Shown here in pieces: positions 13,315 through 52,699 of a stretch of DNA of 64,000 nucleotides. The notes beneath the pieces were generated by a model that was not told the origin of the DNA, made no database searches, and saw only the letters and a list, made by a program, of their open reading frames with translations. Source of the DNA: Spirochaetaceae bacterium (lineage in GTDB: Bacteria > Spirochaetota > Leptospiria > Leptospirales > Leptonemataceae); the NCBI GenBank assembly GCA_002730875.1, contig PCBI01000005.1:901191-965190 (forward strand), read 5' to 3'. How positions within the stretch are numbered: the stretch's first letter is position 1; each line of letters opens with the position of its first letter. A program made the position numbers and the translations under genes.

Positions 13315-13521
13315 GCAATGCTGGCCTATCCCTGGAGCTGGGATTTCTAAGCGATAACGGAAACTACATACGGCTCGAAGATACCGGGCCAGGGCAGGAA
13401 TCTCCACAAGGGCCTTCCCGCGTTGCTCCGTGGTCGTATTGCAAGCTCGCCCGGCTTCCGCAAATAAAGTCAAAAACGACGAAGAGACCCGAGCCCGGAT
13501 CTCTCCGCCAGGAGTGAATGT

Positions 13522-14706
13522 TTATGGCAAGCTGCTTAGCTGTCGCAATCGTTCCCGCTTTTCGGGCGAGTCGTACGGATCATCGGGAAATTCCGAAGCC
13601 GCATACTTGCGGGTTTCATGGCGGGCCGCGGAATATGGAATAAGCATTCGCTTGGGTCGATCCTCGCGAACGTTCTTCAAGAATCGCTCAACCTCGGCAG
13701 GCGATTGGGCCAGAATCTCCGGCTGGATCACATCGGTATTCAGATAACCTCGAAGATCCTTCAGTTCAAAGGGACCGTCAATTTCTCGGTCATGGAGCAC
13801 CTTGCCGAAGAATTCAAGCTCGACGAACTGCAGACCTGGATCCAGTTTCGCATCTTCCCTGGCATAAGCGATAGGTTGCTCGTCGCCAAAAAGATTGGCT
13901 TCAATCGTATAGTTGCCGGGTTTCATTACTTCCAGTTCAGCCGAAATGAACAACGAACCATCTCTGTATGTTTCGTTGAACCTGCCTGTGAAGCGAGCCG
14001 GAGCTACCGGCGAAGAAAAGAAGTGCGTGGACAGAGAAAGCTCGGTGCTGCGGTTCCCGTCGAGCACCGCAAAGTTAATGGTTACGTGAATGTCCCCCCA
14101 ATCCTGCTTTTTGGGCGAAAAGCTGAAAGTATGGATGCCATCGCCTGCATTCGGGTCTCCATTTGTGCCATCATCAAACGGACCCAGAATCTCCTCCGGC
14201 GAGAATTTCTTTACGCCGGCGCGGCCTACGGTCTTTATTTCTACAAGTTTGATGGGCAACGGAGTAATGGAGCCCTTGCCGGTGCAGGCCAGGAATAGTT
14301 GCATCTTTTCGCCTTCCGTTACGCTGTGCGTAGCCGGCTGCAAAAGGCACTGATAGCCCGAGTCCTGCGGCTTTCCGTCTTGCATCACCGGCATGGTCTG
14401 CAGGGCCACAGGTATTTCCCTGTGACGAATCACATCCCTGTGTTCCGGCAGCAAGGGCCTGGAATCTGGCGGATACTTTGACCACTCTTTGTAATTTTTT
14501 ATTAGATCTTCTTTCTTAACGGAGCCATCGAATAACAATTCGGACTGATTTCCCAGAGGACCTGGAGCCCGACTGAGTATTCGACTGTCTTGACTGTCGC
14601 TTTCTTCCAGCTCGTACCCAACGTGCACGTTTTCTGTTTGTAACAGTATGATGGCGGTGGCTACAAGACCGATGATTACTGCGATGATTACATAGTATTT
14701 CTTCAT
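13522..14706 (-). CDS. Hypothetical membrane-anchored or secreted protein
   Basis: 'MKKYYVIIAVIIGLVATAIILL' anchor; 394 aa with no recognised catalytic motif; own intergenic region separate from the upstream lipase terminator. Confidence 0.55.
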   Translation of the reverse strand: MKKYYVIIAVIIGLVATAIILLQTENVHVGYELEESDSQDSRILSRAPGPLGNQSELLFDGSVKKEDLIKNYKEWSKYPPDSRPLLPEHRDVIRHREIPVALQTMPVMQDGKPQDSGYQCLLQPATHSVTEGEKMQLFLACTGKGSITPLPIKLVEIKTVGRAGVKKFSPEEILGPFDDGTNGDPNAGDGIHTFSFSPKKQDWGDIHVTINFAVLDGNRSTELSLSTHFFSSPVAPARFTGRFNETYRDGSLFISAELEVMKPGNYTIEANLFGDEQPIAYAREDAKLDPGLQFVELEFFGKVLHDREIDGPFELKDLRGYLNTDVIQPEILAQSPAEVERFLKNVREDRPKRMLIPYSAARHETRKYAASEFPDDPYDSPEKRERLRQLSSLP

Positions 14707-14741
14707 GGTGAATCTCCAATGCCGATAATCGTCGGCTTAGA

Positions 14742-14770
14742 ATGAAAAATGGCGGGGGATAATCCCCCGC
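14742..14770 (-). terminator. Rho-independent terminator candidate after the lipase gene
   Basis: Hairpin GCGGGGGAT-AAT-CCCCCGC at 14752-14770, followed on the minus strand by a U-tract (plus-strand 'gaaaaat' at 14741-14751). Confidence 0.4.
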
Positions 14771-14781
14771 GCATGCCAGGC

Positions 14782-15645
14782 CTAATCCAACAGGATGTAG
14801 GTGGGGTCGTTATGAGGTTCAGTGTGACGCATGGGAATTCCACCGTTGGGAACAGAAGGATGCATCACGTGTCCATCCCAGGGGGTAATCAGCTGCTTTC
14901 GCTGCCAGAAGCACCAGTTACACTGACGGATCTTTTCGCCCATGCACTGGCTAAAGGCGCCAGTGGTTCGATAACCGCAGGCGCTGTGGAAGGCCACCAG
15001 GGTATCGTCCTCCCCAGGAAGGAATGGCTCGGCAATCCAGATGGATTTATTCGCGGCTACGTGGTAGAACACCGTACCATTTGTTCGGTTATGATCGAAC
15101 AGTCCCCGGGCATTGCTTGTAACCAGGGCTTGAATCGCATCGTGGTTTTCCACCAGGTTATCCGTAAGTTGATTATCCTGCAGACCGAACACAAACTTCA
15201 AGATTTCGATGGCGGTGTCGCCCAGGTTGGCGATTTCCGATCCGCCCTCAGCCGAAACAATCTGAGTTGTGTACAGAACGTTGTAGAGTCCTGTGCGATT
15301 GTACATTGCCAGGGTTCCCGCTGTAGTGAATCCACCCAGGGATTCAGCCACGATTCGGCAGGTCTGTCCCTGATCCTTTCGGCAGTACTTGTTCAGTAGC
15401 TCGAGCAGGCGAACGCTGCCGGCTGTGGGAACGGCCACAAAGGGATTTCTGCGTCCATCGTATCCCGCAAGTGTGTAGTCATCCACCGGAAGGTTTTGCC
15501 AGTAGCCATTACAGGAACCGGTTGTATCCTGGCATTCTTCGTTGGATTCAATCAAGCTCATCCCGTGGACGAAGATTACCTTTTCCGCATGCACTCCGCT
15601 GACGCTCATGCAAATGGCGGCCAGCATTAGTATTATCTTTTTCAT
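14782..15645 (-). CDS. Secreted alpha/beta hydrolase, lipase family
   Basis: Signal peptide 'MKKIILMLAAICMSVSGVHA'; 'VIFVHGM' oxyanion region; 'AESLGG' nucleophile elbow; RBS GGAGAAA before the ATG. Confidence 0.75.
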   Translation of the reverse strand: MKKIILMLAAICMSVSGVHAEKVIFVHGMSLIESNEECQDTTGSCNGYWQNLPVDDYTLAGYDGRRNPFVAVPTAGSVRLLELLNKYCRKDQGQTCRIVAESLGGFTTAGTLAMYNRTGLYNVLYTTQIVSAEGGSEIANLGDTAIEILKFVFGLQDNQLTDNLVENHDAIQALVTSNARGLFDHNRTNGTVFYHVAANKSIWIAEPFLPGEDDTLVAFHSACGYRTTGAFSQCMGEKIRQCNWCFWQRKQLITPWDGHVMHPSVPNGGIPMRHTEPHNDPTYILLD

Positions 15646-15697
15646 TTTCTCCTCTCATCGTTTGCCCCGAACTTCGTCGGGCGTTTCCGAGAGCATT

Positions 15698-15712
15698 TCA
15701 AGAATCGTGCCA
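15698..15712 (-). promoter_or_regulatory. Sigma-54 (-24/-12)-like promoter candidate upstream of the lipase gene
   Basis: Minus-strand TGGCACGATTCTTGA matches TGGCACG-N4-TTGCW with exact spacing, except -12 'GA' instead of 'GC'; about 50 nt upstream of the lipase ATG and immediately downstream of the bEBP gene. Confidence 0.3.
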
Positions 15713-15970
15713 CCCCGGCAATGCCGCGGTTTTGGCCCCGGCCGCCCGTGCTGGACAGATTGGCGCTGCGGAAGGAAAAACAGCCAGATAGGCACCGTTT
15801 CCGCCAGGCAGGGCGCACAGGGCCATTAAGGCCCATTAAGGCGCTTTTACTGGCGATTGATTTCTGATGGTCGGGACCGGATTCTGCGAGTTCTCAGGTC
15901 GTTTCAGCCTGGGTAGCAGATCAGAATTAACGAAATGGCTGCCTCGAAAGAGTGAATGGTAGACGAACCG

Positions 15971-16020
15971 GCCAGATCTGGCCGGTGGAAAATGGCCAGG
16001 TGGCCGGATCTGGCCACCTG
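15971..16020 (-). terminator. Two adjacent perfect palindromes, CCGGCCAGATCTGGCCGG and CAGGTGGCCGGATCTGGCCACCTG, just 3' of the bEBP gene; candidate terminator and/or protein-binding site
   Basis: Exact inverted repeats read directly; on the minus strand the second palindrome is followed by GCCAUUUUCC. Confidence 0.35.
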
Positions 16021-16028
16021 TTTCGGTC

Positions 16029-18494
16029 TCAGTTGTCCAAACCCAGTTCTTTCATTCTATTTCTCAGGGTACTTCGTTTGAGTCCCAGGATTTCTGCGGC
16101 TCTGGTCTTGTTTCCTCCGGATAAGCTCAGGGCCCTCTTGACCATGGCCCGACCGTAATCTCGAATTTCCCGGTCATAGGGAATGTTTACGCTGTCCGGT
16201 CCGGTAGATTCCCCGGAATCCCGGACCATGCCCTCATCTTTGCGGCTATCAGTCCGGGAACCGATGCCCCCTGGTCGAGGCAATACCCGGCTTCTATCTG
16301 AATCAGAGAGTAGATGCAAAAACTGCGAAGGGGCCAGGCTTTCACTTTCGTTTAGAACGATGGTCCGTATTAGCAGGTTTTCCAGTTCGCGAATGTTTCC
16401 GGGCCAGGAGTAGCTCATTAAAGCCCGTAGAGAGTCTGCCGGGATTTCAGGTGGTGAGATCTTATGCTCGCTGCAGATTCGGTCTACGAGATAATGCACG
16501 AGACCGGGGATATCTTCTGGTCTTTCCCGCAGAGGAGGCAACTGCAAAGTGAATACATTTATTCGGTAGAGCAGATCCTGCCTGAAGCTGCCTTCTTTTA
16601 TCATGCTATCCAGATCGCGGTTCGTGGCGAACAAGAATCGACAGCGCGCTTCCACAGTGCCTTCGGCTCCCAGGGGACTGAAAACCCTCTCTTGAAGGAC
16701 TCGCAATAGTTTGGCCTGCATGTTCAGCGGCATTTCGCCGATCTCATCCAGAAAAAGCACTCCGCCGGCCGCTTCGGCAATGCGGCCGGTGCGCTCCGAA
16801 CGTGCATCGGTAAAGGCCCCGCGTCTATGCCCAAACAACTCCGATTCCCACAGAGTTTCCGGAATGGCCGCACAGTTCACGGCTACAAACGGGCCGCCGG
16901 AAGAGCTACCGATAAGCCGGGCCACCAGCTCCTTTCCTGTACCCGTTTCTCCGTGAATCAGCACGGATTGGTTTACCGGTTGCAGCTTGCGAATCTGGTC
17001 GATCACTCGTCGCATGGCGACGCTGCGAATTACCATGTTCCGACCGCCGCCAGTGGGTATTAGATCTGGCTCGGTGCGAACTACCCTTTCCAGTTCTTCT
17101 AAATGAACGGAAAAATCAGGTAATTCCTTTCTGGCCGTGCGAAGCATGTCAGTCATATCTTCAAATGCCGCCCGCAGCTTCAGGATTTCATCGCCTTCCT
17201 GCCTGCCATCGCTTTTCTGGCCGCGTAGCTTGCCCATGTCTTCCAGCAGCCGATGTATTGGTCTAATAATACTTCCGCGAAAGAGCACAGGAAAAAGAAG
17301 TAGCGTTAACCCGGAAGCTGCCAGAAGCAGAACGGCATGGATCATGGCAGAATCGTGCAATTCCTGGCGAAATGAAGAGTACGGAAATCCCACAAGATAA
17401 GAGCGACCTGCATGGTTGAATGTCGCGCCAGCAAAGGCTTTTCTGTCGTAGAGGCCATACTGGATCCAGGGGTCTGAATGCCCTGGCTCCAAAGCCTTAC
17501 TTTCGAGGCGCTTTTCCTGCGAACCGTCTTGATCGAAGTGGCTCTCTTCCAACATTTCATCAAACTGAACAGGCTGCAAAAACAGAATGTCGGAGTTTGC
17601 TTCCCCTCTGGCCAGCGCCAGCTTCCCGATCAGGATGGATTTTTGTCTGAAGGATTCCATGAACCATCGATCGCTCTGAACCGATGCGAAACTCAGCAAT
17701 CCCAGGACCGTGACGAAGGTAATCCCTATTAATCGATGCATGAAGCCGGTACGTGCGGTGGCCGCGGAGGAATAGACTACTACATAGATACCGAAAATAA
17801 GCAGCATGACGGCATTCATTGTGAATGCCAGGCCTGCATTATCCAGAAGGCTGGCCCGACTCATCAGGTATACGGTGTTCACTCCCAGTTCCACGGATGT
17901 TACGAAGACCAGGAATACGGAAGCACGAAGGCGGGCATCGCTCTGCCACGCCGACTTCAGGCTGGCCAGACTACTCGACTGCGTTGCTTTTCGATGCTGC
18001 TGTATGAAATGAAGGGCCGATCGCAGGGCTACCAGGATACTCCCCAGGAAACAAAGAAAGCTTACAAGGGGGACCCAGAGTGAGCTGTAGGAGGATCCGT
18101 AGGTGTGGACTCCAAAGACGGGTCCGAAATCCGTGCCTGCGCGGACCAGATACTCCATGGTGGCAGCCGTGGCGGCCAAACCGCTAATGTAGAGCACTGG
18201 TTTTCGCTCTCTTTCAAAAGGAGAATCCGGAAAGACATAGGCGAATTGTAGTCTGGCCACTCCGGCGAAGGCAATGATGCAGGCGAAGTACCAGGAATAA
18301 CCGGCATACGGGCTGTTCCAGCAGTAACCTACAAAATAGCTTAGATTGAATGCGGTCAAACAGCTGAAGTAGATAGCGAGCCACAGGCTGCTAAGCTCGC
18401 CCCTGGACCGATACCAGAGGTAAGCGCTAATGGCGGAGGTGAGAAGTAGCGGCCCCAGGCGTCCTATGGCAAAATAGGTGAGCTGAATCTCCAC
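16029..18494 (-). CDS. Sigma-54-dependent transcriptional activator (bEBP) with N-terminal 7TMR-DISM-type 7-TM domain and C-terminal Fis-type HTH
   Basis: Seven N-terminal TM helices; AAA+ 'VLIHGETGTGKELVA'; 'GAFTDA' variant of GAFTGA; 'FRQDLLYRINVFTLQLPPLRERPEDI'; HTH 'GNKTRAAEILGLKRSTLRNRMKEL'. GTG start overlaps the upstream stop (TAGTG). Confidence 0.85.
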   Translation of the reverse strand: MEIQLTYFAIGRLGPLLLTSAISAYLWYRSRGELSSLWLAIYFSCLTAFNLSYFVGYCWNSPYAGYSWYFACIIAFAGVARLQFAYVFPDSPFERERKPVLYISGLAATAATMEYLVRAGTDFGPVFGVHTYGSSYSSLWVPLVSFLCFLGSILVALRSALHFIQQHRKATQSSSLASLKSAWQSDARLRASVFLVFVTSVELGVNTVYLMSRASLLDNAGLAFTMNAVMLLIFGIYVVVYSSAATARTGFMHRLIGITFVTVLGLLSFASVQSDRWFMESFRQKSILIGKLALARGEANSDILFLQPVQFDEMLEESHFDQDGSQEKRLESKALEPGHSDPWIQYGLYDRKAFAGATFNHAGRSYLVGFPYSSFRQELHDSAMIHAVLLLAASGLTLLLFPVLFRGSIIRPIHRLLEDMGKLRGQKSDGRQEGDEILKLRAAFEDMTDMLRTARKELPDFSVHLEELERVVRTEPDLIPTGGGRNMVIRSVAMRRVIDQIRKLQPVNQSVLIHGETGTGKELVARLIGSSSGGPFVAVNCAAIPETLWESELFGHRRGAFTDARSERTGRIAEAAGGVLFLDEIGEMPLNMQAKLLRVLQERVFSPLGAEGTVEARCRFLFATNRDLDSMIKEGSFRQDLLYRINVFTLQLPPLRERPEDIPGLVHYLVDRICSEHKISPPEIPADSLRALMSYSWPGNIRELENLLIRTIVLNESESLAPSQFLHLLSDSDRSRVLPRPGGIGSRTDSRKDEGMVRDSGESTGPDSVNIPYDREIRDYGRAMVKRALSLSGGNKTRAAEILGLKRSTLRNRMKELGLDN

Positions 18495-21265
18495 TAGATG
18501 TCTCCTACGGATGCTACCATATCAGTGTCGTCGTCCGATGCCGTTCCCGCGGCCGCCTCAAGCGCTGCACGAAGCGCCGGAAGGGAGGGTTCACCAGGAT
18601 TCGCATTCTCCAGCTCCTGGATAAGTTCCCTGGCGCGGCGGAAGTCACGGGAAATAAGATAAAGACGGACCAGATGGCGGAGGTTATCGCTTCTTTCCGG
18701 GGCCCGTAGCAGCAAACGCTCGCCCAGGTCAATGGCTTCTGTGATACGGTCTCCCTTGCGACAGGCCCTGGACGCAGAAAGCAGGAACTCGGTGTCTTCC
18801 GGGATCAGAGACACTCGCCGCATGGACAGAATGGCCGCCAGGGACCAATCCTCGGCCGCGATGGCTTCCTTAAGTTGGCCTGTAACCGTTCGGTAATCCG
18901 GAGCCTGTCCATCAAACCCAATGGACATCAGGGAAAGATCGTCAGTGATTTCTCCTGTGGCCTGAAGGATTTCGTAGATGCGGGAAAGGTCTCCCTGGCT
19001 CCTTTCGACTATGTCAAGAAATGGTTTTTCGCTGGTATTCATTTGCGGACCTGACTCCGTCTCCACGATGATGTCATCACGACCATCAGATCCCAGAATC
19101 AATAATTGCTCCGGAAGTAATCTGAAAACCTGAACGCGTAGTCTTCGCGCATCGGCCGGGGTACCCAGCTTCATCAATTGATCGCTGATATCCAGGAACC
19201 GGGCTTTTCCATCCTCATAGATGACCGGAGCCGGATGTTCGGCGCTGATACAGTAAACTACCCCTGTGGCTTCATCAATCAAACCCAGCACAAAGCTTAT
19301 GAGCATGCTGCCGTCGAAAGCGCGAAAGACCGAGTTCATTTCTTCAAAGGATGTTTTCAGCCATCGCTCCGGCGAATACCTCTGAAGCGCCGAGGCCGAC
19401 CGACTACGGTGCAGAATAGCCTTGAAAAGACTGCCCAGAACCAGTATTCCACCGCCCCCCTGAATGGATTTACCCATGGCATCGGCATTTAGAAAGACCG
19501 TGTAAGTCCTCTGTCCGAGCTGAAAGCGATCGGCCACGCAGTAATCACCGCCTATCTCGGATTTCCATTTTTTGAAGGCGAATTCCTTTTTCTGTTTTAA
19601 AAGAAACTCTACATGAACCAGCCCATTGGCCGTTTCATTGTGTACAAGGGGCGTAAGTAGCAGGGACGTAAGAAAATAATCCCCATCCTGCCTGGATTTG
19701 GCCTCATGCAGTGCATCATTGGTTTCGCTCAATTCCCTGGTTCTCGCTTCGACCATTTGTTCCAGGTTCTCCGCGTATTGTTGTAATCTCTGTCTTGCAT
19801 CCTGGACGCTACGTACCATGGAATTGAAGGATCGAGCCAGAAATCCGATCTCATCCTCAACCTGCACCGGTACATGAACGGTAAGGTCCCCTTCGTTTAC
19901 CTGTTTAACTCCGGAGAGCAGGGAATTCAGCGGTCGTATCAAGCTACTGGAAAAGAAAAACGGAAATAGCACCAGTAGCAAAAAGGTCAATAGCAGCACG
20001 AGTGCACTGTATTCCAGGACGCTGTCATGTACTTCCCGGCGAAAAACTTCATATGGGAAACCGAATTCAATCCAGCCCGTATTGGTAGGAGCGGAGTAGA
20101 AGACAATTCTCCTGTCTTCCGCGATTCGGTAATCCCTTTGAAGCTGACTTCTGGTTTTTCCCAGGATCTCCTCCCTGGCCCGGGTGAGGGCTTCCTCTTC
20201 GCTTACTTGCTTTTCCCCTATGATCTTTAGGGCCCGTTTCTCGATAAGATAGTCACTCCGGTTTATATCGCTGTCCTTCAGCGCTTCTGCGCTCCATTCC
20301 GACCCGGTAACTTCCAGATAGGTGTCGGGATACCGCCGGTCGGCGGGCAGTGACGCAAGATAAATAGCTCCTGGCGGAAGGGTGGGTACATCCCGGGTGA
20401 GCATGGACTGGATCGCGGCCCGGTTCTTCTGATCAAAGGAGTCTTCAATTCGCTGAATGCTTCTGGATCCCAGCAGGGAAGTGGCGACCAGCAGAGTCAC
20501 GAGAGAGATACCCACCAGTCGAACCATGATACTTGTATTCTCTCGGGAATGGTTGATGTAGACAATGAAGTAGAAGAAATACACAAACATGAGCCCCAGA
20601 TTGAAGATCTGATTAATCGTAAGGGCAGATACGAAATCCGTAACCGTGGAGATCATGTACAGAATATTGACGATTAATTCAGCCAGTGCGATCAACAGGA
20701 AGGAGCGTACGGCCACGATGTTTCTGTGAGATGGTCGAAACAAAGCCTGGAAAAAGCTTTGCGAGTTTGCTTTGCCGAGAGCTCGAATCTGCCGGAGAAA
20801 AATAATCATCACACCAAAGAACATGATCATGGTAACCAGAGGAACATACGGAGAGGCATAGAGCGATCCGTAGATATGGTTATCGAAAAAGAATCTGTAG
20901 GGCGTTTGCTCGGCAACGTACGAGTATTCCGCAATGGCAAACAGGGAGATTAGCAAAGAAAGGATGAGTACCACTTTGGATTCCCGGGGGAACCGGTTTG
21001 CCGGCATATGATACGCAAACTGTAGCTTAAAAACCAGAGCAAGTGTGATGCAGCAAGCAATATAGAAGCCATATCTCCCTTCCGGTACATCCAATGCAAA
21101 GGCAAGGAGATATCCAATATTGAAGAGCGAAAGGAATCCAAAGAAACCGCCCAGATAAAGCGCCGGCCGCGAATTTCGCACAAAGAGTAGCATATGTCCG
21201 GCCAGAAGGATTGTAAGGATTGTTGGCGTTAGCCGATCGAAGAAATTTGCATTTAATAGGATCAT
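18494..21265 (-). CDS. 7TMR-DISM 7-TM receptor / HAMP / PP2C (SpoIIE/RsbU-type) serine phosphatase with C-terminal TPR repeats
   Basis: Seven TM helices; HAMP-like linker; PP2C motifs 'NADAMGKSIQGGGG' (GDxxGKG-like, as in RsbU) and 'ILGSDGRDD'; TPR-like C-terminus. Confidence 0.85.
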   Translation of the reverse strand: MILLNANFFDRLTPTILTILLAGHMLLFVRNSRPALYLGGFFGFLSLFNIGYLLAFALDVPEGRYGFYIACCITLALVFKLQFAYHMPANRFPRESKVVLILSLLISLFAIAEYSYVAEQTPYRFFFDNHIYGSLYASPYVPLVTMIMFFGVMIIFLRQIRALGKANSQSFFQALFRPSHRNIVAVRSFLLIALAELIVNILYMISTVTDFVSALTINQIFNLGLMFVYFFYFIVYINHSRENTSIMVRLVGISLVTLLVATSLLGSRSIQRIEDSFDQKNRAAIQSMLTRDVPTLPPGAIYLASLPADRRYPDTYLEVTGSEWSAEALKDSDINRSDYLIEKRALKIIGEKQVSEEEALTRAREEILGKTRSQLQRDYRIAEDRRIVFYSAPTNTGWIEFGFPYEVFRREVHDSVLEYSALVLLLTFLLLVLFPFFFSSSLIRPLNSLLSGVKQVNEGDLTVHVPVQVEDEIGFLARSFNSMVRSVQDARQRLQQYAENLEQMVEARTRELSETNDALHEAKSRQDGDYFLTSLLLTPLVHNETANGLVHVEFLLKQKKEFAFKKWKSEIGGDYCVADRFQLGQRTYTVFLNADAMGKSIQGGGGILVLGSLFKAILHRSRSASALQRYSPERWLKTSFEEMNSVFRAFDGSMLISFVLGLIDEATGVVYCISAEHPAPVIYEDGKARFLDISDQLMKLGTPADARRLRVQVFRLLPEQLLILGSDGRDDIIVETESGPQMNTSEKPFLDIVERSQGDLSRIYEILQATGEITDDLSLMSIGFDGQAPDYRTVTGQLKEAIAAEDWSLAAILSMRRVSLIPEDTEFLLSASRACRKGDRITEAIDLGERLLLRAPERSDNLRHLVRLYLISRDFRRARELIQELENANPGEPSLPALRAALEAAAGTASDDDTDMVASVGDI

Positions 21266-21324
21266 GGCGTCTAAAGTGGAATGAATTCTCCTCGGAATTT
21301 GTTTTGAATCAATCCTTTTTCGGA

Positions 21325-21341
21325 TGCAGAAAACGTGCCAG
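21325..21341 (-). promoter_or_regulatory. Sigma-54 promoter candidate upstream of the 7TMR-DISM PP2C / bEBP operon
   Basis: Minus-strand CTGGCACGTTTTCTGCA = TGGCACG-N4-CTGCA (-24 GG and -12 GC, correct spacing); about 60 nt upstream of the ATG at 21265. Confidence 0.5.
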
Positions 21342-21626
21342 GAATCAGAACGGCAGCCAGGACTCCTGCTTTGAATTCAGCCCCGGGAGCATTTAGCAGG
21401 AATACCGGGCAAGGCTTTCCGCTAAATCGATTGGCCAATGGATGGATTCTTCAGAAGCAATTCTGCATACGGGCGCGGGCAAAAAGCTATCCTGAATACC
21501 GCCGCGGGAAAAAAGCCAGAAATTACAAAGTGGCTTAATGAGTAGTTAGTGGGCTACCCGTGCCTGTGACACTTGCTAACTTGACTGCTCTTCAGGAGTA
21601 GCAAAGAATGCGTCGAATCCCCGGAA

Positions 21627-22415
21627 CTACATAGCCAGAACAATGGCAACGTTGGCCGCCGAATGAACCAGAAATGTCCAGAGGAGTGAATCGGTCTGAA
21701 TACGAAGGGCCGAAAGCGTAATCCCACATAGCGTATAGTAAAGAGCCAATTCTGGATCCAGGGTTGTGGGAACGTGGGCTGCCGTGAATATTGCCGCCGA
21801 AACAAAATGACCAATCCAGTGCGGGGCCCGACCTATACGCGAAGGAAGCCAGTGCCTGAAAGCAATCTCTTCGAAGAGCGGAGCGATTCCTATACCAATC
21901 AGCCAAATTGTAAGATGGAACCCATCCATACGGCCGGAACTTACCGGTACATCCTGGTTGATGCTGGCCAGAAGCATGGTCAGGGCCGTGAAGGCCAGAA
22001 TCGAATGAAGCAAACTGGAAGGGCGTGTATCCAGGCGGAAGAAGAGCTTTCGCTCCAGGTTGCTTAGAAGATAGAGCGAGAATGGGGCCAGCGCGGCCAG
22101 AAGAAGGGGCTGAAACACATAGAACCGGAGTAGCTCCTTGTTAGGATAGAGCGTCGTATGAACAATCAACAGAACGCACCATGCCAGCATACCGGCAATT
22201 CCCAGATAGGCCGGAAGTCTGGCGGCTGGCCCGGAAAGAAGACTCCGCAATTCCAGGGCCGTGGCGCGCCTGGTCGCGTCGGATTCCCGGCCCAGTTTAT
22301 CATAGTGGTCGTTTAGGCTGGTTCTTTCTTCACTGGTCAGTAGACGCCGAAGCTCGACGTTGTTACGCACCATCCGCCAAAGAAGCGCTGCTCTGTATCT
22401 GTCCCTTTTTGCCAT
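21627..22415 (-). CDS. CPBP family intramembrane metalloprotease (CAAX protease / Abi family)
   Basis: 'EEIAFRHWL' (EExxxR), 'FxxxH' and 'HSAANVA' motifs; probable start MAKRD at 22415, to avoid overlap with divergent asd. Confidence 0.7.
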   Translation of the reverse strand: MAKRDRYRAALLWRMVRNNVELRRLLTSEERTSLNDHYDKLGRESDATRRATALELRSLLSGPAARLPAYLGIAGMLAWCVLLIVHTTLYPNKELLRFYVFQPLLLAALAPFSLYLLSNLERKLFFRLDTRPSSLLHSILAFTALTMLLASINQDVPVSSGRMDGFHLTIWLIGIGIAPLFEEIAFRHWLPSRIGRAPHWIGHFVSAAIFTAAHVPTTLDPELALYYTLCGITLSALRIQTDSLLWTFLVHSAANVAIVLAM

Positions 22416-22459
22416 TGCCACTGCAGGGCTTCTCTCAAACCTGGTAATCGGAGGAACCC

Positions 22460-23464
22460 ATGAAAGCCAGAAAGTTAGCCATAGTAGGGGCCACCGGAGC
22501 GGTGGGCCAGGAGATGCTAAAGGTGCTGGAAAAGCGCAATTTCCCCTACGATGAACTCGTGTTACTTGCATCGGCAAGATCTGCAGGAAAGAAGATTACC
22601 TTTCGCGGCACGGAACACACGATTCAGGAGCTAACCGAAGATTCCTTTCATGGGATCGATCTGGCCCTTTTCAGCGCCGGCGGATCCATCACAAAGAAAT
22701 TCGCGCCCGTTGCCGTATCTGCGGGTACAGTGGTCGTGGATAATTCCAGCGCTTACAGACTGGATCCCGATGTTCCTTTGATCGTTCCGGAAATCAATCC
22801 CCAGGATGCGAAAAGCCACAAGGGAATTCTGGCCAACCCAAACTGTTCTACGATTATCATGCTAATGGCGGTGTATCCCATCTACAAGCTCTATGGCATT
22901 CGTCGACTGGTAGTGTCTACTTATCAGGCGGCCTCCGGAGCCGGGGCCGCAGCCATGGAAGAGCTGGAAGAGCAGGCCAGGGCGATGCTGGCCGGAAATC
23001 AACCGCCCACGGAATCGTTTCCCTTTCCTCTCGCATTTAATGTCTTCAGTCATAATTCCGCTCTTTATCCAGAGAACGGATTTAACCAGGAAGAAGTGAA
23101 AATGGTAAAGGAAAGCCATAAGATCCTGGGAAACAGCAATTTGCGAATCAGTCCTACCTGCATTCGAGTAGGTACGTTTCGCGCCCATGCGGAATCCATT
23201 CATGTGGAACTGGAAAAGGAAGGCGATCTGGACGAGATTCGCAATGCGCTGGCAGACTTTCCGGGAGTGCAACTAAAAGAGGACATGGAAAAGAACCATT
23301 TCCCCATGCCGCTGGAAGTATCCGGCCAGGACGACGTCTACGTCGGTCGCATTCGCTGGGATCTGGACGATCCAGAACATAAGAATCTGCAATTATTCTG
23401 CGTAGGTGATCAGCTGCTGAAAGGCGCGGCCCTGAATGCAGTGCAGATTGCCGAGATCCTTTAG
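22460..23464 (+). CDS. asd: Aspartate-semialdehyde dehydrogenase
   Basis: 'LAIVGATGAVGQEML' NAD(P)-binding; 'NPNCSTI' active-site Cys; 334 aa. Confidence 0.9.
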   Translation: MKARKLAIVGATGAVGQEMLKVLEKRNFPYDELVLLASARSAGKKITFRGTEHTIQELTEDSFHGIDLALFSAGGSITKKFAPVAVSAGTVVVDNSSAYRLDPDVPLIVPEINPQDAKSHKGILANPNCSTIIMLMAVYPIYKLYGIRRLVVSTYQAASGAGAAAMEELEEQARAMLAGNQPPTESFPFPLAFNVFSHNSALYPENGFNQEEVKMVKESHKILGNSNLRISPTCIRVGTFRAHAESIHVELEKEGDLDEIRNALADFPGVQLKEDMEKNHFPMPLEVSGQDDVYVGRIRWDLDDPEHKNLQLFCVGDQLLKGAALNAVQIAEIL

Positions 23465-49611: not shown

Positions 49612-50027
49612 CAGTTCAGCTCTTTGTAGTACTTATATAGCTCTTCGAGAAGAAACTCGCACACGTACCTATCCCGAATGTTTGGCTCTTTTTGATCCAG
49701 CAGAATTTCTTTTAGACGAAGCAGCTTGTAATTCATCATTTTTTGCTTCGTGGTCTTGTCTTGTGTCTTACTATGAAGCACATACATCGTCAATGTGCCC
49801 GGATCGGAGGTGAGGATTTTGGCTTTCGCATGCACCTCCAGAAATCTGCGTAATTTCTCCAGCAGATCCTCTCTATGCATTGCTTCCACGGGCCCAATAT
49901 GGCCGCACCCATCAGGATTCAAAGTACTTTCCAGAGCTGACTGGCTGCCATTTAAGCTGATGCAGCCAGATATGTCTGAGCAGTCATTTACGACTGCCCG
50001 GCCACTTGCGATTGTCTGGCCATTCAC
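49611..50027 (-). CDS. Small hypothetical protein in a low-GC islet, translationally bridging PP2C paralog and oppD
   Basis: ORF overlaps the PP2C stop (50024-50027) and the oppD start (49611); the segment is visibly AT-richer than its surroundings; true start may be internal (MHREDL). Confidence 0.3.
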   Translation of the reverse strand: MNGQTIASGRAVVNDCSDISGCISLNGSQSALESTLNPDGCGHIGPVEAMHREDLLEKLRRFLEVHAKAKILTSDPGTLTMYVLHSKTQDKTTKQKMMNYKLLRLKEILLDQKEPNIRDRYVCEFLLEELYKYYKELN

Positions 50028-52699
50028 GCCTGGGCGGCCGAGCGAATCAAATCTGACAGCTTTTTAGCCGAAGGGTTTTCCGGCTCCAGGTCCAGGGCCT
50101 TTTCCGCAAGCTCCCGGGCCCGATCCAGATTCCCTGTAACACGATAGCTATCCGCCAGATTGATCAAGTTGGCAATCCTACCCGGTTGAGCTGAGGCCAC
50201 CCTTTCGCCGGTTTGAATGGCCATGTCATGCTGACGCAGATGTTTGTAGCATACGGAAAGCGAAAAGAAAGCGTCGCTGTTATCCGGCTCCAATTCCGCA
50301 AGCTGGCTTAAAGGCTGCACGGCCTCCTGATATCGGTTTTCCATCATCAGGATTCGTCCTTTGAGGCGTAGAGCATTTCCGTGATCGGGATCGATCTCCA
50401 GAAGCTGATCCAGTTTTCTCAGCGCGCCGCTTACATCATTTCCCTGCTGGCCTTCCCGGGCCATACGCAGAAGACTGTCGATATCGCCTATCTTCGATCC
50501 AGAGCCAGTTTCTTGAAAGCCCACTCGCAGGAGGCTCAAATCGTCGGTAACAGTGCCCGTGGCATGGATTCGATCTACAATGGCCAGCAGATCCCCGTCG
50601 GCCTCTTCTACGTACTTCAAAAACAGGGTCTCGTCTTCATTGATGGTGCGAACATCGGCGCCGCCGCTAAGATCCAGGTCGTCCCGTCCGTCGGAGCCGG
50701 CAAAGAGTACGTCCCCGGGTTCCAGCTGGAAACGCTGGACCTGAAACTTGAACTCGGAGGGGGATCCCAGCTTTCGGAGCATCAACTCCTGTTCGATGAA
50801 TGTTGCCTGTCCCTTTCGGTATAGCACCGTCCACGGATGCTCGGCGTTGAAATAGGTCATCATGCCGGTTTCCTCATCGATAACGCCCACAACTGCCGAA
50901 AGCATCATAAGACCGTCAAAGGCCAGAAACAGGTTATGCAATTCTTCATAGGTTTCGGTTAGCCATTCTTCGGGACTAACATTCAAAACTCGGTCATCGC
51001 CAGCGGACCGGGCCAGTATGTTGTTCATCGCCGTTCCCATTACGATGGCGCCGCCGGCTCCCTGCATGGATTTGCCCATGGCATCGCCGTTCATGAATAC
51101 GGTGTGTCGCCGAGCTTGCGGCCCAAGACGCAGGTTTCCGGTAACGCATATATCGCCGCCCAGGTCCGCGGACCGTTCTTTGAAGACAAACTTCTTCTTT
51201 TGCTCCACGTAGAACTCGGTGTTGATTCGATCCGATTTGTTTCGATTGGTCTGCAGCGGTCGTCCAATCAGATAAGTCAGGTAATAGTCTCCGTCCTGCT
51301 GGACTTTCATCTCATGGATCTGCTGCATCTTTTCGGTAACTTCTTTGGTGCGCTCATCGACCTTGAGTTCCAGGTTTTCGGCGTAGTCCTGGAGTTTCTG
51401 TCGGGCGTCCAGAATACTCTTTACCATGTTGTTGAAAGCCCGGGATAGATAGCCGATTTCATCCTCCACCATCACGGGGATCTTGACTTCGAAGTCTCCT
51501 TCTTCTACCTGGCCCACGCCGTCCAGAAGCGAATGCAGCGGTTTTACCAGGCTTCGCGAAAAGAAAATGGGGTAGAGGATCAGAACGCTGAGAACCAGAG
51601 CAAGAGTCAGGATTGCCGTTCCGATCATGGAATCATGGATGAACTGCCTGTATTCTTGATAGCGGTAGCCTACTTCGATGACATCTCCTTGATTTTCGCC
51701 TGCAGGCGGCACGTGGTAGGCTACGTACAGATCGTCTGAGTGCGGTTCCATCTGGCGAAAATGGCGCGCCATAAAGTCCGTGCGTTCGCTTCGCTTTACG
51801 AGCTTTCCCTGGTCCAGGGATTCCAGCGGTTTTGCATATGCCACCGGACTTACCGGTTCCTGGCCGGTTACAACATAGCTCTGGGCCTGGAGGCCATGGA
51901 TACGGTCATAGCTGCGATGAGTCTGCTGTCCGGAGAAAGCGGAAAGGGCCTGGATTGCCAGGAGTAGCGTAACCAGCGAAATCCCCACAATCTTGGTCAT
52001 GAAGCTGGTTCGCTCTACAGTGTTGTTTATGAATACAAGAACAATGGCCGTGTAGCCCAGAAGACTGGTGAGTACATATCCCTGTTGAAAAGTTGAATGG
52101 CTGATGCGGCCGCCGTTGTAGAGAACATTAACGATACCGGGAAGTAGCGTTGGAATGAGCATGGCCACTACCAATTGCCGGGCCGCCCGACGTTCCTTCC
52201 GCTCCATTTTGAAGCTTCGATACGTCAGGACCACCGTGAACCAGAGAATCATCAGAATCATGCCCCGGGCCACCCATGCTCCCATCTCCTGCGGATAATT
52301 GAAAAGTTCGCCCTGGAAGTCAAAGTCCGGACGAGTTTGCAATGCATTAAAATAGAAATGAACTACGAGCGCCAGGCCGAGTGTCAGGCTGGTCCAGAAG
52401 GCTATCCGCGAAGCGCGCGTCTTCTTATTCTCCGGGAAGTGATGAGCAAACTGAATCATGTAGACCAGAGGAATGAAGACAACACCCACCGTTATGAATC
52501 GATGATCGCCGCCCAGCGGTCCAATTACCAGGGCTGACCAGAGATAGCCTACATTGAGGCCAACGGCTCCAAAGAAGAATAGAGTCATGTCCCGGGTATA
52601 TAGCTGTTTCTCTTTCAGTGAAATCAGATACAGCAGAAGTACCAGAGTGTAGAGAGTGCAAACCAGGGTAGCAATTCCCCATTCATTGAAGTAGAGCAT
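50024..52699 (-). CDS. 7TMR-DISM 7-TM receptor / HAMP / PP2C (SpoIIE-type) phosphatase with TPR C-terminus (paralog of 18494..21265)
   Basis: Same architecture; linker and PP2C regions ~60% identical by eye ('PVMVEDEIGYLSRAFNNMVKSILDARQKLQDYAENLE' vs 'PVQVEDEIGFLARSFNSMVRSVQDARQRLQQYAENLE'); 'NGDAMGKSMQGAGG'. Confidence 0.85.
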   Translation of the reverse strand: MLYFNEWGIATLVCTLYTLVLLLYLISLKEKQLYTRDMTLFFFGAVGLNVGYLWSALVIGPLGGDHRFITVGVVFIPLVYMIQFAHHFPENKKTRASRIAFWTSLTLGLALVVHFYFNALQTRPDFDFQGELFNYPQEMGAWVARGMILMILWFTVVLTYRSFKMERKERRAARQLVVAMLIPTLLPGIVNVLYNGGRISHSTFQQGYVLTSLLGYTAIVLVFINNTVERTSFMTKIVGISLVTLLLAIQALSAFSGQQTHRSYDRIHGLQAQSYVVTGQEPVSPVAYAKPLESLDQGKLVKRSERTDFMARHFRQMEPHSDDLYVAYHVPPAGENQGDVIEVGYRYQEYRQFIHDSMIGTAILTLALVLSVLILYPIFFSRSLVKPLHSLLDGVGQVEEGDFEVKIPVMVEDEIGYLSRAFNNMVKSILDARQKLQDYAENLELKVDERTKEVTEKMQQIHEMKVQQDGDYYLTYLIGRPLQTNRNKSDRINTEFYVEQKKKFVFKERSADLGGDICVTGNLRLGPQARRHTVFMNGDAMGKSMQGAGGAIVMGTAMNNILARSAGDDRVLNVSPEEWLTETYEELHNLFLAFDGLMMLSAVVGVIDEETGMMTYFNAEHPWTVLYRKGQATFIEQELMLRKLGSPSEFKFQVQRFQLEPGDVLFAGSDGRDDLDLSGGADVRTINEDETLFLKYVEEADGDLLAIVDRIHATGTVTDDLSLLRVGFQETGSGSKIGDIDSLLRMAREGQQGNDVSGALRKLDQLLEIDPDHGNALRLKGRILMMENRYQEAVQPLSQLAELEPDNSDAFFSLSVCYKHLRQHDMAIQTGERVASAQPGRIANLINLADSYRVTGNLDRARELAEKALDLEPENPSAKKLSDLIRSAAQA

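What the first reader, a model, noticed from the sequence alone, without database searches (positions are those of the whole stretch)
16029..21341. Two-gene 7TMR-DISM signalling operon: a PP2C phosphatase translationally coupled to a 7TM-fused sigma-54 activator, behind its own sigma-54 promoter
The 923-aa 7TM/HAMP/PP2C/TPR protein ends with TAG, sharing one nucleotide with the GTG start of an 821-aa protein (TAGTG at 18492-18496). That second protein carries the same type of 7-TM N-terminus fused to a sigma-54 AAA+ activator plus Fis HTH. A membrane-embedded bEBP is rare, and pairing it with a homologous 7TM phosphatase suggests a shared ligand, or a receptor/co-receptor pair with phosphatase cross-talk. 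Upstream of the pair, the minus strand reads CTGGCACGTTTTCTGCA (21325-21341). This is a -24 GG / -12 GC sigma-54 element with canonical spacing, implying positive autoregulation. The bEBP carries GAFTDA instead of GAFTGA in the sigma-54 contact loop. No STAS or anti-sigma antagonist partner for the PP2C is present in the window, so the phosphatase substrate is unknown.
Basis: partly seen in the sequence, partly recalled or inferred. Interest (0 to 1): 0.75.

Follow-up and report, generated by a model that had tools for sequence, protein, structure and literature searches.

The report
Membrane-embedded sigma-54 activator controlling a lipase operon
A spirochaete (Leptospirales-type) locus encodes a transcription activator built into the cell membrane that most likely switches on a neighbouring secreted lipase-like enzyme, with a related membrane phosphatase as a recurring partner; the design has not been described, but every part is of a known kind.

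Summary
Both ORFs, the TAGTG overlap, the domain calls and the -24/-12 element are real. The N-termini are paralogous (27% identity, E 5e-45).

The "7TMR-DISM" label fails. There is no Pfam hit at E<=10, hhalign probability is 0.5%, and the AF2 model shows 8 TM + periplasmic domain + 1 TM. The bundle is only GPCR-like at fold level. GAFTDA is a known functional variant and is conserved in this subfamily.

In 12 of 14 informative loci (Leptospira sarikeiensis, Leptospirales and other MAGs), this membrane bEBP sits beside a secreted lipase-like alpha/beta-hydrolase. A DUF4785-like gene follows the hydrolase in eight of them. Each hydrolase gene has a sigma-54 promoter 44-73 nt upstream of its start. 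In most loci 14-bp dyads lie by the bEBP gene end, and their half-sites covary with the HTH recognition helix. That operon (13522-15645) is the likely direct target.

The PP2C is a recurring accessory. Its orthologues pair with transcription factors carrying the same sensor module, either sigma-54 type (3 loci) or AraC type (2 loci).

The sigma-54 promoter upstream of the PP2C is a strong match but is not conserved and has no matching enhancer. Autoregulation therefore remains unproven.

Verdict: a new variant of a known kind. Interest 0.6.

The parts
18494..21265 (-). Membrane PP2C phosphatase, 923 aa: about 8 TM + periplasmic region (~270-415) + TM (~418-440) + HAMP 437-488 + SpoIIE/PPM 588-782 + C-terminal TPR
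   Evidence: ORF, Pfam, hydropathy. The metal-binding motifs GGD574, D595, SDG726-728 and DD775-776 are conserved in 23 family PP2Cs. The start matches that of orthologue P0003 (MLYLNLNFFDRFTPT).
16029..18494 (-). Membrane-integral sigma-54 activator (bEBP), 821 aa: TM1-8 (7-296), periplasmic beta domain 305-371, TM9 372-398, HAMP-like helices 400-473, AAA+ 477-736 (Walker A GETGTGK, GAFTDA), Fis-type HTH 773-816
18492..18496 (-). TAGTG stop/start overlap, with an AGGAG Shine-Dalgarno sequence 7 nt upstream of the GTG: translational coupling of PP2C and bEBP
   Evidence: The N-terminus is conserved with homologues (MEIQLTY / MQILLTY), alignment.
21325..21340 (-). P1: sigma-54-type -24/-12 element TGGCACGTTTTCTGCA, 60 nt upstream of the PP2C start codon
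   Evidence: About 0.005 chance matches expected in this intergenic stretch. Not conserved upstream of the PP2C in L012 or upstream of lone bEBPs.
21391..21427 (-). Inverted repeat ATTTAGCGGAA-N13-TTCCTGCTAAAT, 50-90 nt upstream of the P1 -24 element. Possible enhancer for P1; binding factor unknown
   Evidence: I3. Position only, no comparative support.
21455..21512 (.). Two tandem 29-nt direct repeats (79% identical), 115-190 nt upstream of P1. Function unknown
   Evidence: D2.
16002..16015 (.). Dyad GGCCGGATCTGGCC, 14 nt after the bEBP stop codon: candidate enhancer (UAS) site 1. It is also the stem of a possible hairpin followed by ATTTTCC
   Evidence: Equivalent dyads occur in 9 other loci. 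The half-site covaries with the HTH recognition helix.
15970..15983 (.). Dyad GGCCAGATCTGGCC, 32 bp (three helical turns) from site 1: candidate enhancer site 2, about 260 nt upstream of P2
   Evidence: Only these two exact copies exist in the 64 kb window.
15697..15712 (-). P2: sigma-54-type element TGGCACGATTCTTGAA, 52 nt upstream of the lipase-like start codon. The -12 dinucleotide is GA instead of GC
   Evidence: All 12 other regulatory regions examined carry a -24/-12 element 44-73 nt upstream of the orthologous gene. L008 has the same TTGAA variant.
14782..15645 (-). Secreted lipase-like alpha/beta-hydrolase, 287 aa: signal peptide, HGM motif, invariant Ser102 in (D/E)S(L/M)GG. Predicted direct target of the bEBP
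   Evidence: No Pfam hit and no PDB sequence hit. Family of only 37 clusters. AF2 pLDDT 79. Foldseek top hits are Burkholderia glumae, Proteus mirabilis and P. aeruginosa lipases, best E 7e-6, TM-score 0.42-0.49. Alignment.
13522..14706 (-). Membrane-anchored 394-aa protein with a weak DUF4785 third-domain match: second gene of the target operon
   Evidence: Pfam DUF4785_3rd, E 2.2e-6. Conserved partner in window, L002, L003, L005, L006, L007, L010, L012 and L018. No PDB sequence hit.
13477..13510 (-). Terminator-like hairpin (15-bp stem plus T run) ending the lipase/DUF4785-like operon

Best explanation
The locus is a four-gene signalling-and-response unit. Its conserved core is a one-component, membrane-integral sigma-54 activator.

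The activator's N-terminal 9-TM sensor (a GPCR-like helix bundle, then a small periplasmic domain, then one more TM helix) feeds through a HAMP-like linker into the AAA+ ATPase. The mechanism I infer is as follows. A membrane or periplasmic cue, possibly lipid or fatty acid, switches the sensor on. The AAA+ domains then oligomerise. The Fis-type HTH binds two 14-bp dyads (GGCCRGATCTGGCC, 32 bp apart) lying just past the activator's own stop codon. The ring remodels sigma-54 RNA polymerase at the -24/-12 promoter about 260 nt further on. This turns on a secreted family-I-lipase-like hydrolase and its membrane-anchored DUF4785-like partner.

The upstream gene encodes a paralogous sensor fused to an apparently active PP2C phosphatase and TPR repeats. 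It is a recurrent accessory of transcription factors that carry this sensor module. It most likely tunes the activator's signalling state, either through heteromeric contacts between the homologous sensor/HAMP parts or through Ser/Thr dephosphorylation.

In this genome the PP2C and the translationally coupled activator lie behind their own sigma-54 promoter. Their expression would therefore depend on sigma-54. Which activator fires that promoter is unknown.

Shown: the genes, the domains, the paralogy, the promoter and dyad sequences, and their conservation and covariation. Inferred: binding, activation, the nature of the signal and the PP2C's role.

For: (2) Gene neighbourhood. A lipase-like gene is adjacent to the membrane bEBP in 12 of 14 informative loci: window, L002, L003, L004, L005, L006, L007 (Leptospira sarikeiensis), L008, L010, L012, L015 and L018. 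It is absent from L001 and L016. The orientation varies (tandem or divergent), which argues for a functional link rather than inherited synteny.

(3) Every one of the 13 regulatory regions carries a sigma-54 -24/-12 element 44-73 nt upstream of the lipase-like start codon. Two are perfect 11/11 matches.

(4) Perfect GRCN-N6-NGYC dyads occur at 4.24 per kb in these regions against 0.24 per kb in all fetched loci.

(5) Covariation between the recognition helix and the half-site: TLRNRM goes with GGCC (window, L008), TLRYRM/L goes with GGCA (L002, L005, L006, L012), and TL(A/T)YR goes with GACA (L003, L007). L004 was examined afterwards and fits (TLRYRM with GGCA dyads).

(6) The target protein folds as a lipase-type alpha/beta-hydrolase and has an invariant Ser102 and HG motif.

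(7) PP2C pairing. PP2C orthologues lie beside a bEBP in the window, L012 and L018, and beside or near an AraC-type factor with the same module in L019 (1-nt gap) and L014. The PP2C metal-binding Asp motifs are conserved.

(8) P1 is a 10/11 match in the right place and on the right strand.
Against: - There are no expression, binding or activity data. Everything is sequence inference.
- rpoN is not in the window, and the genome could not be searched.
- The window's own lipase promoter has GA instead of the near-invariant GC at -12. The same variant in L008 suggests it is tolerated.
- The first dyad could equally be the stem of the bEBP gene's terminator.
- The more divergent loci L015 and L018 have the promoter but no dyad of this type.
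- The covariation is confounded by phylogeny and rests on few independent lineages.
- P1 is not conserved and has no matching dyad.
- The PP2C is absent from 11 of 14 bEBP loci, so it is not required for the core circuit.
- The PP2C and bEBP periplasmic regions differ in length (about 145 vs 75 aa), which argues against an identical periplasmic ligand.
- The lipase assignment rests on modest TM-scores (0.42-0.49). The Asp/His region of that model is low-confidence (pLDDT <50 at 213-237).
Confidence: 0.6

Rival explanations
1. The two genes form a self-contained, positively autoregulated operon. The bEBP activates its own sigma-54 promoter (P1) upstream of the PP2C, and both proteins sense one shared ligand.
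For: P1 is a strong -24/-12 match in the correct position. The genes overlap by one base. The sensor modules are homologous. An inverted repeat and a tandem repeat lie at enhancer-like distances upstream of P1.
Against: No copy of the candidate enhancer dyad occurs within 400 nt upstream of P1, or anywhere else in the window beyond the two exact GGCCRGATCYGGCC copies downstream of the bEBP; the only other matches to the looser GGCC-N6-GGCC pattern lie near 50 kb. L012 has the same PP2C-bEBP pair but no sigma-54 promoter upstream, and no lone bEBP has one. The periplasmic domains differ in size.
Confidence: 0.3
2. The PP2C is an ordinary RsbU/SpoIIE-type partner-switching phosphatase. Its substrate is a STAS-domain protein encoded elsewhere. 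It shares only co-expression, not a signalling interaction, with the bEBP.
For: This organism has several such proteins. A third paralogue with the same module-HAMP-PP2C-TPR architecture lies at 50024..52699(-), away from any transcription factor. 26 of the top 150 module-family representatives are PP2C fusions. Most bEBP loci lack a PP2C.
Against: The three PP2C-type proteins closest to this one in a search of 1.84 billion representatives are P0003, P0004 and P0009. Each lies next to or near a transcription factor with the same module, in different gene arrangements and with two different output types. L018 adds a fourth case. No STAS gene was detected in the window, although that search had low sensitivity.
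Confidence: 0.3
3. The activator does not work at the membrane. A signal triggers proteolytic release of the soluble AAA+-HTH portion, which then activates transcription.
For: A hexameric AAA+ ring tethered by 54 TM helices to the membrane while contacting DNA is sterically demanding. The HAMP connector (427-434) and the pre-HTH linker (737-771) are low-confidence, flexible segments.
Against: No protease gene is conserved in the loci. A HAMP-like linker is retained across the subfamily, which points to conformational signalling rather than cleavage. From my own knowledge, membrane-bound DNA-binding regulators such as ToxR and CadC do function in situ.
Confidence: 0.1
4. P1 is a fortuitous or vestigial match. 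The PP2C-bEBP pair is transcribed from an unrecognised housekeeping-type promoter, and only the lipase operon depends on sigma-54.
For: P1 is not conserved. Three of the five one-mismatch matches in the window are intragenic and are presumably chance. No enhancer has been identified.
Against: The chance expectation in this stretch is about 0.005. The sigma-70 consensus scan found no candidate on the minus strand in the 21266-21626 intergenic region. The P1 core is almost identical to the L002 lipase promoter (TGGCACGCTTTCTGCA).
Confidence: 0.2

Closest known systems
Bacterial enhancer-binding proteins of Leptospira: EbpA (GAF-GAF, LIC_10132) and EbpB (REC, LIC_11549)
   Same: Same AAA+ sigma-54 activation domain and Fis-type HTH, and the same bacterial order. 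EbpA also controls genes for environmental survival, including putative lipoprotein genes (PMC12655853).
   Different: Those proteins are soluble, with GAF or receiver input domains. This one has a 9-TM integral-membrane sensor plus a HAMP-like linker and a different predicted target (the lipase-like operon). The review of leptospiral sigma factors does not mention it (zero occurrences of 'transmembrane').
Sigma-54 control of the lipase-foldase operon lipA-lipH in Pseudomonas (LipQ/LipR, CbrA/CbrB). Recalled from my own knowledge, not checked here
   Same: A family-I lipase operon, with the lipase followed by a membrane-anchored helper gene, is transcribed from a sigma-54 promoter with an upstream enhancer. 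The target here is structurally closest to those lipases.
   Different: In Pseudomonas a separate histidine kinase phosphorylates a soluble bEBP. Here sensor and activator are one membrane protein. The second gene is DUF4785-like, not a recognisable Lif foldase.
7TMR-DISM receptors (Pfam PF07695/PF07696; described by Anantharaman and Aravind, recalled from my own knowledge)
   Different: No sequence or profile similarity. There is no N-terminal extracellular DISMED domain. The module has 8 TM + a periplasmic domain + 1 TM + HAMP instead of 7 TM followed directly by the output.
Membrane HAMP-PP2C phosphatases such as SiaA of Pseudomonas aeruginosa, and RsbU/SpoIIE
   Same: A membrane-anchored HAMP-PPM phosphatase with conserved metal-binding Asp motifs. 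The best NCBIfam hit is SiaA over the HAMP/linker region (E 3.9e-14).
   Different: The score of 52 bits is far below SiaA's 700-bit cutoff, so it is not an orthologue. It has a different sensor and an extra C-terminal TPR. No STAS or SiaC-like substrate gene is nearby. It is paired instead with a transcription factor that shares its sensor module.
Membrane-bound one-component transcription regulators (ToxR, CadC). Functional analogy from my own knowledge
   Same: Sensing and DNA binding are combined in one membrane-anchored polypeptide, often with a membrane co-sensor partner (ToxS, LysP).
   Different: Those are single-pass, sigma-70-type winged-helix activators. This one is a polytopic AAA+ ATPase that must oligomerise and contact sigma-54 polymerase.

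Membership tests
Sigma-54 activators (bEBP, Pfam Sigma54_activat) | AAA+ sigma-54 interaction domain above the curated threshold | tested here: met
Sigma-54 activators (bEBP, Pfam Sigma54_activat) | Walker A motif and the GAFTGA sigma-54 contact loop | tested here: met
   GETGTGK at 515 and GAFTDA at 559. GAFTDA is listed among the activity-compatible variants and occurs in the experimentally studied DVU2106 (PMC4641369). All 12 subfamily representatives except one carry G[AS][FY]TDA.
Sigma-54 activators (bEBP, Pfam Sigma54_activat) | C-terminal DNA-binding HTH with cognate enhancer sites near a sigma-54 promoter | tested here: met
   HTH_8 at 39.8 bits. Conserved dyads and promoters, with helix/half-site covariation. 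Binding itself was not tested.
Sigma-54 activators (bEBP, Pfam Sigma54_activat) | rpoN present in the genome | not testable with these tools
   rpoN was not found among the annotated ORFs of the window. The rest of the genome is unavailable. Leptospira species are reported to have rpoN (PMC12655853).
PPM/SpoIIE-type PP2C phosphatases | SpoIIE domain above threshold with conserved metal-binding aspartates | tested here: met
   PF07228 at 75.8 bits against a cutoff of 25. GGD574, D595, SDG726-728 and DD775-776 are conserved at 0.91-1.00 in 23 sequences. Assigning these to metal binding follows established PPM knowledge.
PPM/SpoIIE-type PP2C phosphatases | Cognate phosphoprotein substrate (STAS or other) encoded nearby | tested here: not met
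   tblastn with one STAS query found nothing better than E 0.6. No STAS domain appeared among the Pfam-scanned ORFs. The test has low sensitivity.
7TMR-DISM (Pfam PF07695 7TMR-DISM_7TM) | Match to the 7TMR-DISM_7TM profile | tested here: not met
   No hit at E<=10. Positive controls in L001 and L002 score E 6e-14 to 2e-37. hhalign probability is 0.5%.
7TMR-DISM (Pfam PF07695 7TMR-DISM_7TM) | Seven TM helices preceded by an extracellular DISMED domain | tested here: not met
   The AF2 model starts with TM1 at residue 7, and has eight TM helices, a periplasmic domain and then a ninth TM helix. No DISMED hit was found.
HAMP-linked sensors | HAMP domain after the last TM helix | tested here: inconclusive
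   In the PP2C, HAMP scores 51.6 bits (met). In the bEBP it scores only 16.5 bits, E 0.011, below the cutoff. The model nevertheless shows the two-helix HAMP-like unit at 400-473. 37 of 61 family members hit HAMP.
Sigma-54 promoter (-24 GG / -12 GC) | TGGCAC-N5-TTGCW with invariant GG and GC at canonical spacing | tested here: met
   P1 (21340..21325) matches 10/11 with GG and GC intact. P2 (15712..15697) matches 10/11 but has GA at -12, so it strictly fails the GC criterion. Its position is conserved in 12 other regions, and L008 shares the variant.
Family I bacterial lipases (alpha/beta-hydrolase) | Alpha/beta-hydrolase fold with a nucleophile elbow and an HG oxyanion motif | tested here: inconclusive
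   Foldseek top hits are B. glumae, P. mirabilis and P. aeruginosa lipases, with best E 7e-6 but TM-score only 0.42-0.49. H27-G28 and S102-x-G104 are invariant in 36 sequences. The elbow reads (D/E)-S-(L/M)-G-G, without the first Gly. There is no Pfam or PDB sequence match. The catalytic Asp and His were not assigned.

The most novel reading that the evidence does not exclude
The sensor-PP2C-TPR protein and the membrane-tethered transcription factor (sigma-54 type or AraC type) form a heteromeric receptor through their homologous 9-TM/HAMP modules. The phosphatase gates the transcription factor at the membrane. This would be a previously unrecognised 'paired-paralogue' signalling architecture, in which a polytopic, GPCR-like bacterial receptor directly drives sigma-54 transcription of a secreted lipase in response to a membrane lipid cue.
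Probability: 0.2. Interest if true: 0.8.

Novelty: new variant of a known kind. Interest (0 to 1): 0.6.

Why it matters
Sigma-54 activators are textbook soluble proteins that receive signals through receiver, GAF, PAS or V4R domains. A polytopic membrane version raises a mechanistic question: how does an ATPase ring assemble and reach promoter DNA while embedded in the membrane?

The comparative data give an unusually complete and directly testable circuit: sensor-activator, enhancer, promoter and target enzyme. It occurs in a group (Leptospirales) whose members live on long-chain fatty acids (established knowledge) and whose sigma-54 regulons are linked to environmental survival (PMC12655853).

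The sensor module is an unannotated family. It has 480 representative clusters, no Pfam model, and is fused to kinases, PP2Cs, AraC and sigma-54 outputs. The recurrent pairing of a PP2C paralogue with a transcription-factor paralogue suggests a wiring principle that has not been studied.

Orthologues exist in named species (Leptospira sarikeiensis, L. ryugenii), which offers a route to experiments.

Tried and rejected
- The word-indexed protein search with the sensor module found only the query itself, both as a single sequence and as a 9-sequence profile. TM-rich queries defeat the index, and two of the three searches were lost this way.
- The exhaustive representative search did work.
- The genome contigs and metagenome-contig scans returned only 3 and 1 loci. 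The first attempt failed for lack of conserved stretches. Most context came from the look-up of encoding contigs instead.
- afdb50 was unavailable.
- PDB sequence searches for the lipase-like and DUF4785-like proteins found nothing.
- The Hu 2017 and Zhang 2018 Leptospira sigma-54 papers were not held.
- Literature searches for membrane-bound bEBPs found nothing relevant.
- Considered and rejected: GAFTDA as a sign of inactivity.
- Considered and rejected: recent tandem duplication as the origin of the pair. The PP2C is 44-47% identical to PP2Cs of other loci but only 27% identical to its neighbour, so the duplication is old.
- Considered and rejected: the second operon gene as a Lif-type foldase (no support).


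Full report
**1. Observation**

The two ORFs are as described: 18494..21265(-), 923 aa, ATG start; and 16029..18494(-), 821 aa, GTG start. The stop and start codons share one base in ctaGTGgag, and an AGGAG lies 7 nt before the GTG.

Pfam finds HAMP (437-488), SpoIIE (588-782) and a sub-threshold TPR_19 in the first protein. In the second it finds Sigma54_activat (488-650, 207.7 bits), AAA_lid_14 and HTH_8. NCBIfam and PDB sequence searches agree that the second protein is a bona fide bEBP.

The N-terminal ~470 residues of the two proteins are paralogous (27% identity, E 5e-45).

TGGCACGTTTTCTGCA sits at 21340..21325 on the minus strand, 60 nt upstream of the ATG. One-mismatch matches to TGGCAC-N5-TTGCW number 5 in the window against 1.9 expected. 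The expectation for this 360-nt stretch on this strand is about 0.005.

**2. What the sensor is**

The '7TMR-DISM' label does not hold. Neither N-terminus hits any Pfam family at E<=10. Genuine 7TMR-DISM_7TM proteins encoded next to homologues in L001 and L002 score E 6e-14 to 2e-37. A profile-profile comparison of the module (17 sequences) with those genuine domains gives 0.5% probability.

An AlphaFold2 model of the bEBP was built with a 61-sequence alignment (mean pLDDT 83, above 90 over most of the TM module). It shows the following elements:

| Element | Residues |
|---|---|
| TM1 | 7-29 |
| TM2 | 34-58 |
| TM3 (kinked) | 62-87 |
| TM4 | 94-119 |
| External beta-hairpin | 123-134 |
| TM5 | 140-171 |
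| TM6 | 187-213 |
| TM7 | 219-243 |
| TM8 | 251-296 |
| Small beta domain | 305-371 |
| TM9 | 372-398 |
| HAMP-like helices | 400-473 |
| AAA+ domain and HTH | from 477 |

An exhaustive HMMER search of 1.84 billion representatives with a profile of the two modules finds 480 clusters at E<=1e-3 and 187 at E<=1e-10. Among the top 150, the outputs are:

| Output | Count |
|---|---|
| Histidine kinase | 54 |
| PP2C | 26 |
| AraC-type HTH | 14 |
| Sigma-54 AAA+ | 12 |
| Other or fragment | 46 |

These counts come, with a Pfam check on 61 members. The module is thus a promiscuous, unannotated membrane sensor.

**3. GAFTDA**

All but one of the 12 bEBP-type representatives carry G[AS][FY]TDA. GAFTDA is listed among the variants compatible with activation, and it occurs in the studied activator DVU2106 (PMC4641369). 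It is a subfamily signature, not a defect.

**4. The conserved context**

I recovered homologous bEBP loci from genome and metagenome collections and by exact-protein look-ups. Of 14 informative distinct loci, 12 have an orthologue of the window's 287-aa ORF (14782..15645-) directly beside the bEBP. Eight of these 12 also have an orthologue of the 394-aa ORF (13522..14706-).

The arrangement is usually tandem downstream. It is divergent in L008, L015 and L018, and L018 has a second copy downstream. The loci include Leptospira sarikeiensis (L007; named), Leptospirales MAGs (L002, L006) and a 'Spirochaetia' MAG (L003).

In every one of the 13 regulatory regions a -24/-12 element lies 44-73 nt upstream of the start codon. 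Examples are TGGCACGCTTTCTGCA in L002, and TGGCACACCCCTTGCA and TGGCACACCTCTTGCA, which are 11/11 matches in L018 and L015. The window's version, TGGCACGATTCTTGAA (15712..15697), has GA at -12. L008 has the same TTGAA.

In ten loci one to four 14-bp dyads of the form GRCN-N6-NGYC lie between the bEBP gene and the promoter, usually immediately after the bEBP stop codon. In the window these are GGCCGGATCTGGCC (16002-16015) and GGCCAGATCTGGCC (15970-15983), 32 bp apart and unique in the 64 kb. Such dyads occur at 4.24 per kb in these regions against 0.24 per kb across all fetched loci.

Their half-site tracks the HTH recognition helix:

| Recognition helix | Half-site | Loci |
|---|---|---|
| TLRNRM | GGCC | window, L008 |
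| TLRYRM/L | GGCA | L002, L005, L006, L012 |
| TL(A/T)YR | GACA | L003, L007 |

L004 was inspected only afterwards. It has TLRYRM, GGCA dyads, a -24/-12 element and the start of a lipase-like gene.

I conclude that the bEBP's direct target is this operon. The inference is strong for a sequence-only argument, but binding and activation are untested.

**5. The target proteins**

The 287-aa protein has a signal peptide and belongs to a very small family: 37 clusters at 90% identity among 5.8 billion proteins, with named members only in Leptospira. It has no Pfam or PDB sequence match.

Its AF2 model (pLDDT 79) is closest to family-I bacterial lipases from Burkholderia glumae, Proteus mirabilis and Pseudomonas aeruginosa (Foldseek best E 7e-6, TM-score 0.42-0.49). 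H27-G28 and Ser102 in (D/E)S(L/M)GG are invariant.

The 394-aa protein has an N-terminal membrane anchor and a weak DUF4785 third-domain match. DUF4785 is known from the Legionella type II secretion substrate NttD, whose function is unknown (PMC6617341).

A terminator-like hairpin closes the operon at 13510..13477.

**6. The PP2C**

Its PPM metal-binding motifs (GGD574, D595, SDG726-728, DD775-776) are conserved across 23 family PP2Cs, so it is probably active.

It is 44-47% identical to the PP2Cs of L012 and L018 but only 27% identical to its bEBP neighbour. The sensor duplication is therefore old.

The PP2C is present in only 3 of the 14 bEBP loci, in three different arrangements:

- In the window it lies upstream and overlaps the bEBP.
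- In L012 it lies upstream with a 50-nt gap.
- In L018 it lies at the end of the divergent lipase operon, after a hairpin.

Two further orthologues (37-41% identity) lie beside or near AraC-type regulators that carry the same sensor module. In L019 the stop and start are separated by one base. In L014 they are one gene apart.

So the closest PP2Cs to this one are recurrently linked with transcription factors of the same sensor family, whatever the output domain. This favours an interaction through the shared sensor/HAMP portion. The mechanism is conjecture.

No STAS gene was detected in the window (a weak test). A third module-HAMP-PP2C-TPR paralogue lies at 50024..52699(-).

**7. The P1 promoter and autoregulation**

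P1 is a good sigma-54 element. However, L012 has none upstream of its PP2C, and no lone bEBP has one. No GGCC-type dyad lies upstream of P1.

An inverted repeat (21427..21391) and a 29-nt tandem repeat (21455-21512) occupy enhancer-like positions, but they have no comparative support.

Sigma-54 dependence of the PP2C-bEBP transcript is therefore plausible. Self-activation is unproven.

**8. Comparison with known systems, and verdict**

The AAA+/HTH part is a standard bEBP. The PP2C is a standard PPM phosphatase.

The closest functional precedent for the circuit is sigma-54/enhancer control of the lipA-lipH lipase operon in Pseudomonas (recalled from my own knowledge, not checked here). That system uses a separate kinase and a soluble activator.

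Leptospira's described bEBPs, EbpA and EbpB, are soluble GAF and REC proteins (PMC12655853). I found no description of a polytopic membrane bEBP in the searchable literature, but absence from this library is weak evidence.

I classify the finding as a new variant of a known kind. It is of moderate-to-high interest (0.6), mainly because the comparative data define a complete circuit that can be tested directly, and because they reveal an unannotated sensor family with a recurrent PP2C/transcription-factor pairing.

Noticed in passing
window 50024-52699 (-): A third member of the same sensor family: 891 aa with module-HAMP-SpoIIE-strong TPR, 33% identical to the PP2C of the finding. It lies inside an Opp-type oligopeptide ABC transporter cluster (SBP 56975-58759, permeases 54850-56891, ATPases 47528-49611). 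A lone GGCCCAATATGGCC dyad lies just past its stop codon (49891-49904).
   Followed up: partly
window 15697-15712 (-) and L008 713-728 (-): The lipase-like promoter in the window and in its closest relative both read TTGAA at -12 (GA instead of the near-invariant GC). The other ten loci keep GC. These same two loci share the GGCC-type dyad and the TLRNRM recognition helix.
   Followed up: partly
L019 4827-8984; L014 1-6746: PP2C orthologues are paired with AraC-type (HTH_18) regulators that carry the same 9-TM sensor module. In L019 the two genes are separated by one base (TAGAATG). This implies membrane-tethered AraC regulators with a PP2C partner.
   Followed up: partly
window 14752-14770 (-): A GC-rich hairpin (GCGGGGGATTATCCCCCGC) followed by a T run lies in the 75-nt gap between the lipase-like and DUF4785-like genes. 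It may be an internal attenuator. L018 has a similar hairpin between its DUF4785-like and PP2C genes (about 3670-3760).
   Followed up: no
window 15815-15838: A tandem decamer GCCTTAATGG GCCTTAATGG lies between the dyads and the lipase promoter, at a position where a DNA-bending protein site would be expected. It is not conserved in the other loci as far as I looked.
   Followed up: no
window 10004-11791 (-): A 595-aa protein combines a 2Fe-2S ferredoxin domain (Fer2) with an adenylate/guanylate cyclase catalytic domain. This is an unusual redox-linked cyclase architecture.
   Followed up: no
L018 8394-9429 and 4934-5779: This locus has two lipase-like paralogues, one on each side of the bEBP. 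Each has its own sigma-54 promoter (TGGCACGTTAGTTGCT and TGGCACACCCCTTGCA).
   Followed up: partly
L005 4862-6969: The lipase-like and DUF4785-like genes downstream of this bEBP are split into several frames. This is either pseudogenisation or assembly error.
   Followed up: no
window 21627-22577 (-): A CPBP/Rce1-like intramembrane protease family gene lies immediately upstream of the P1 region on the same strand. It is not conserved next to the bEBP in other loci.
   Followed up: no
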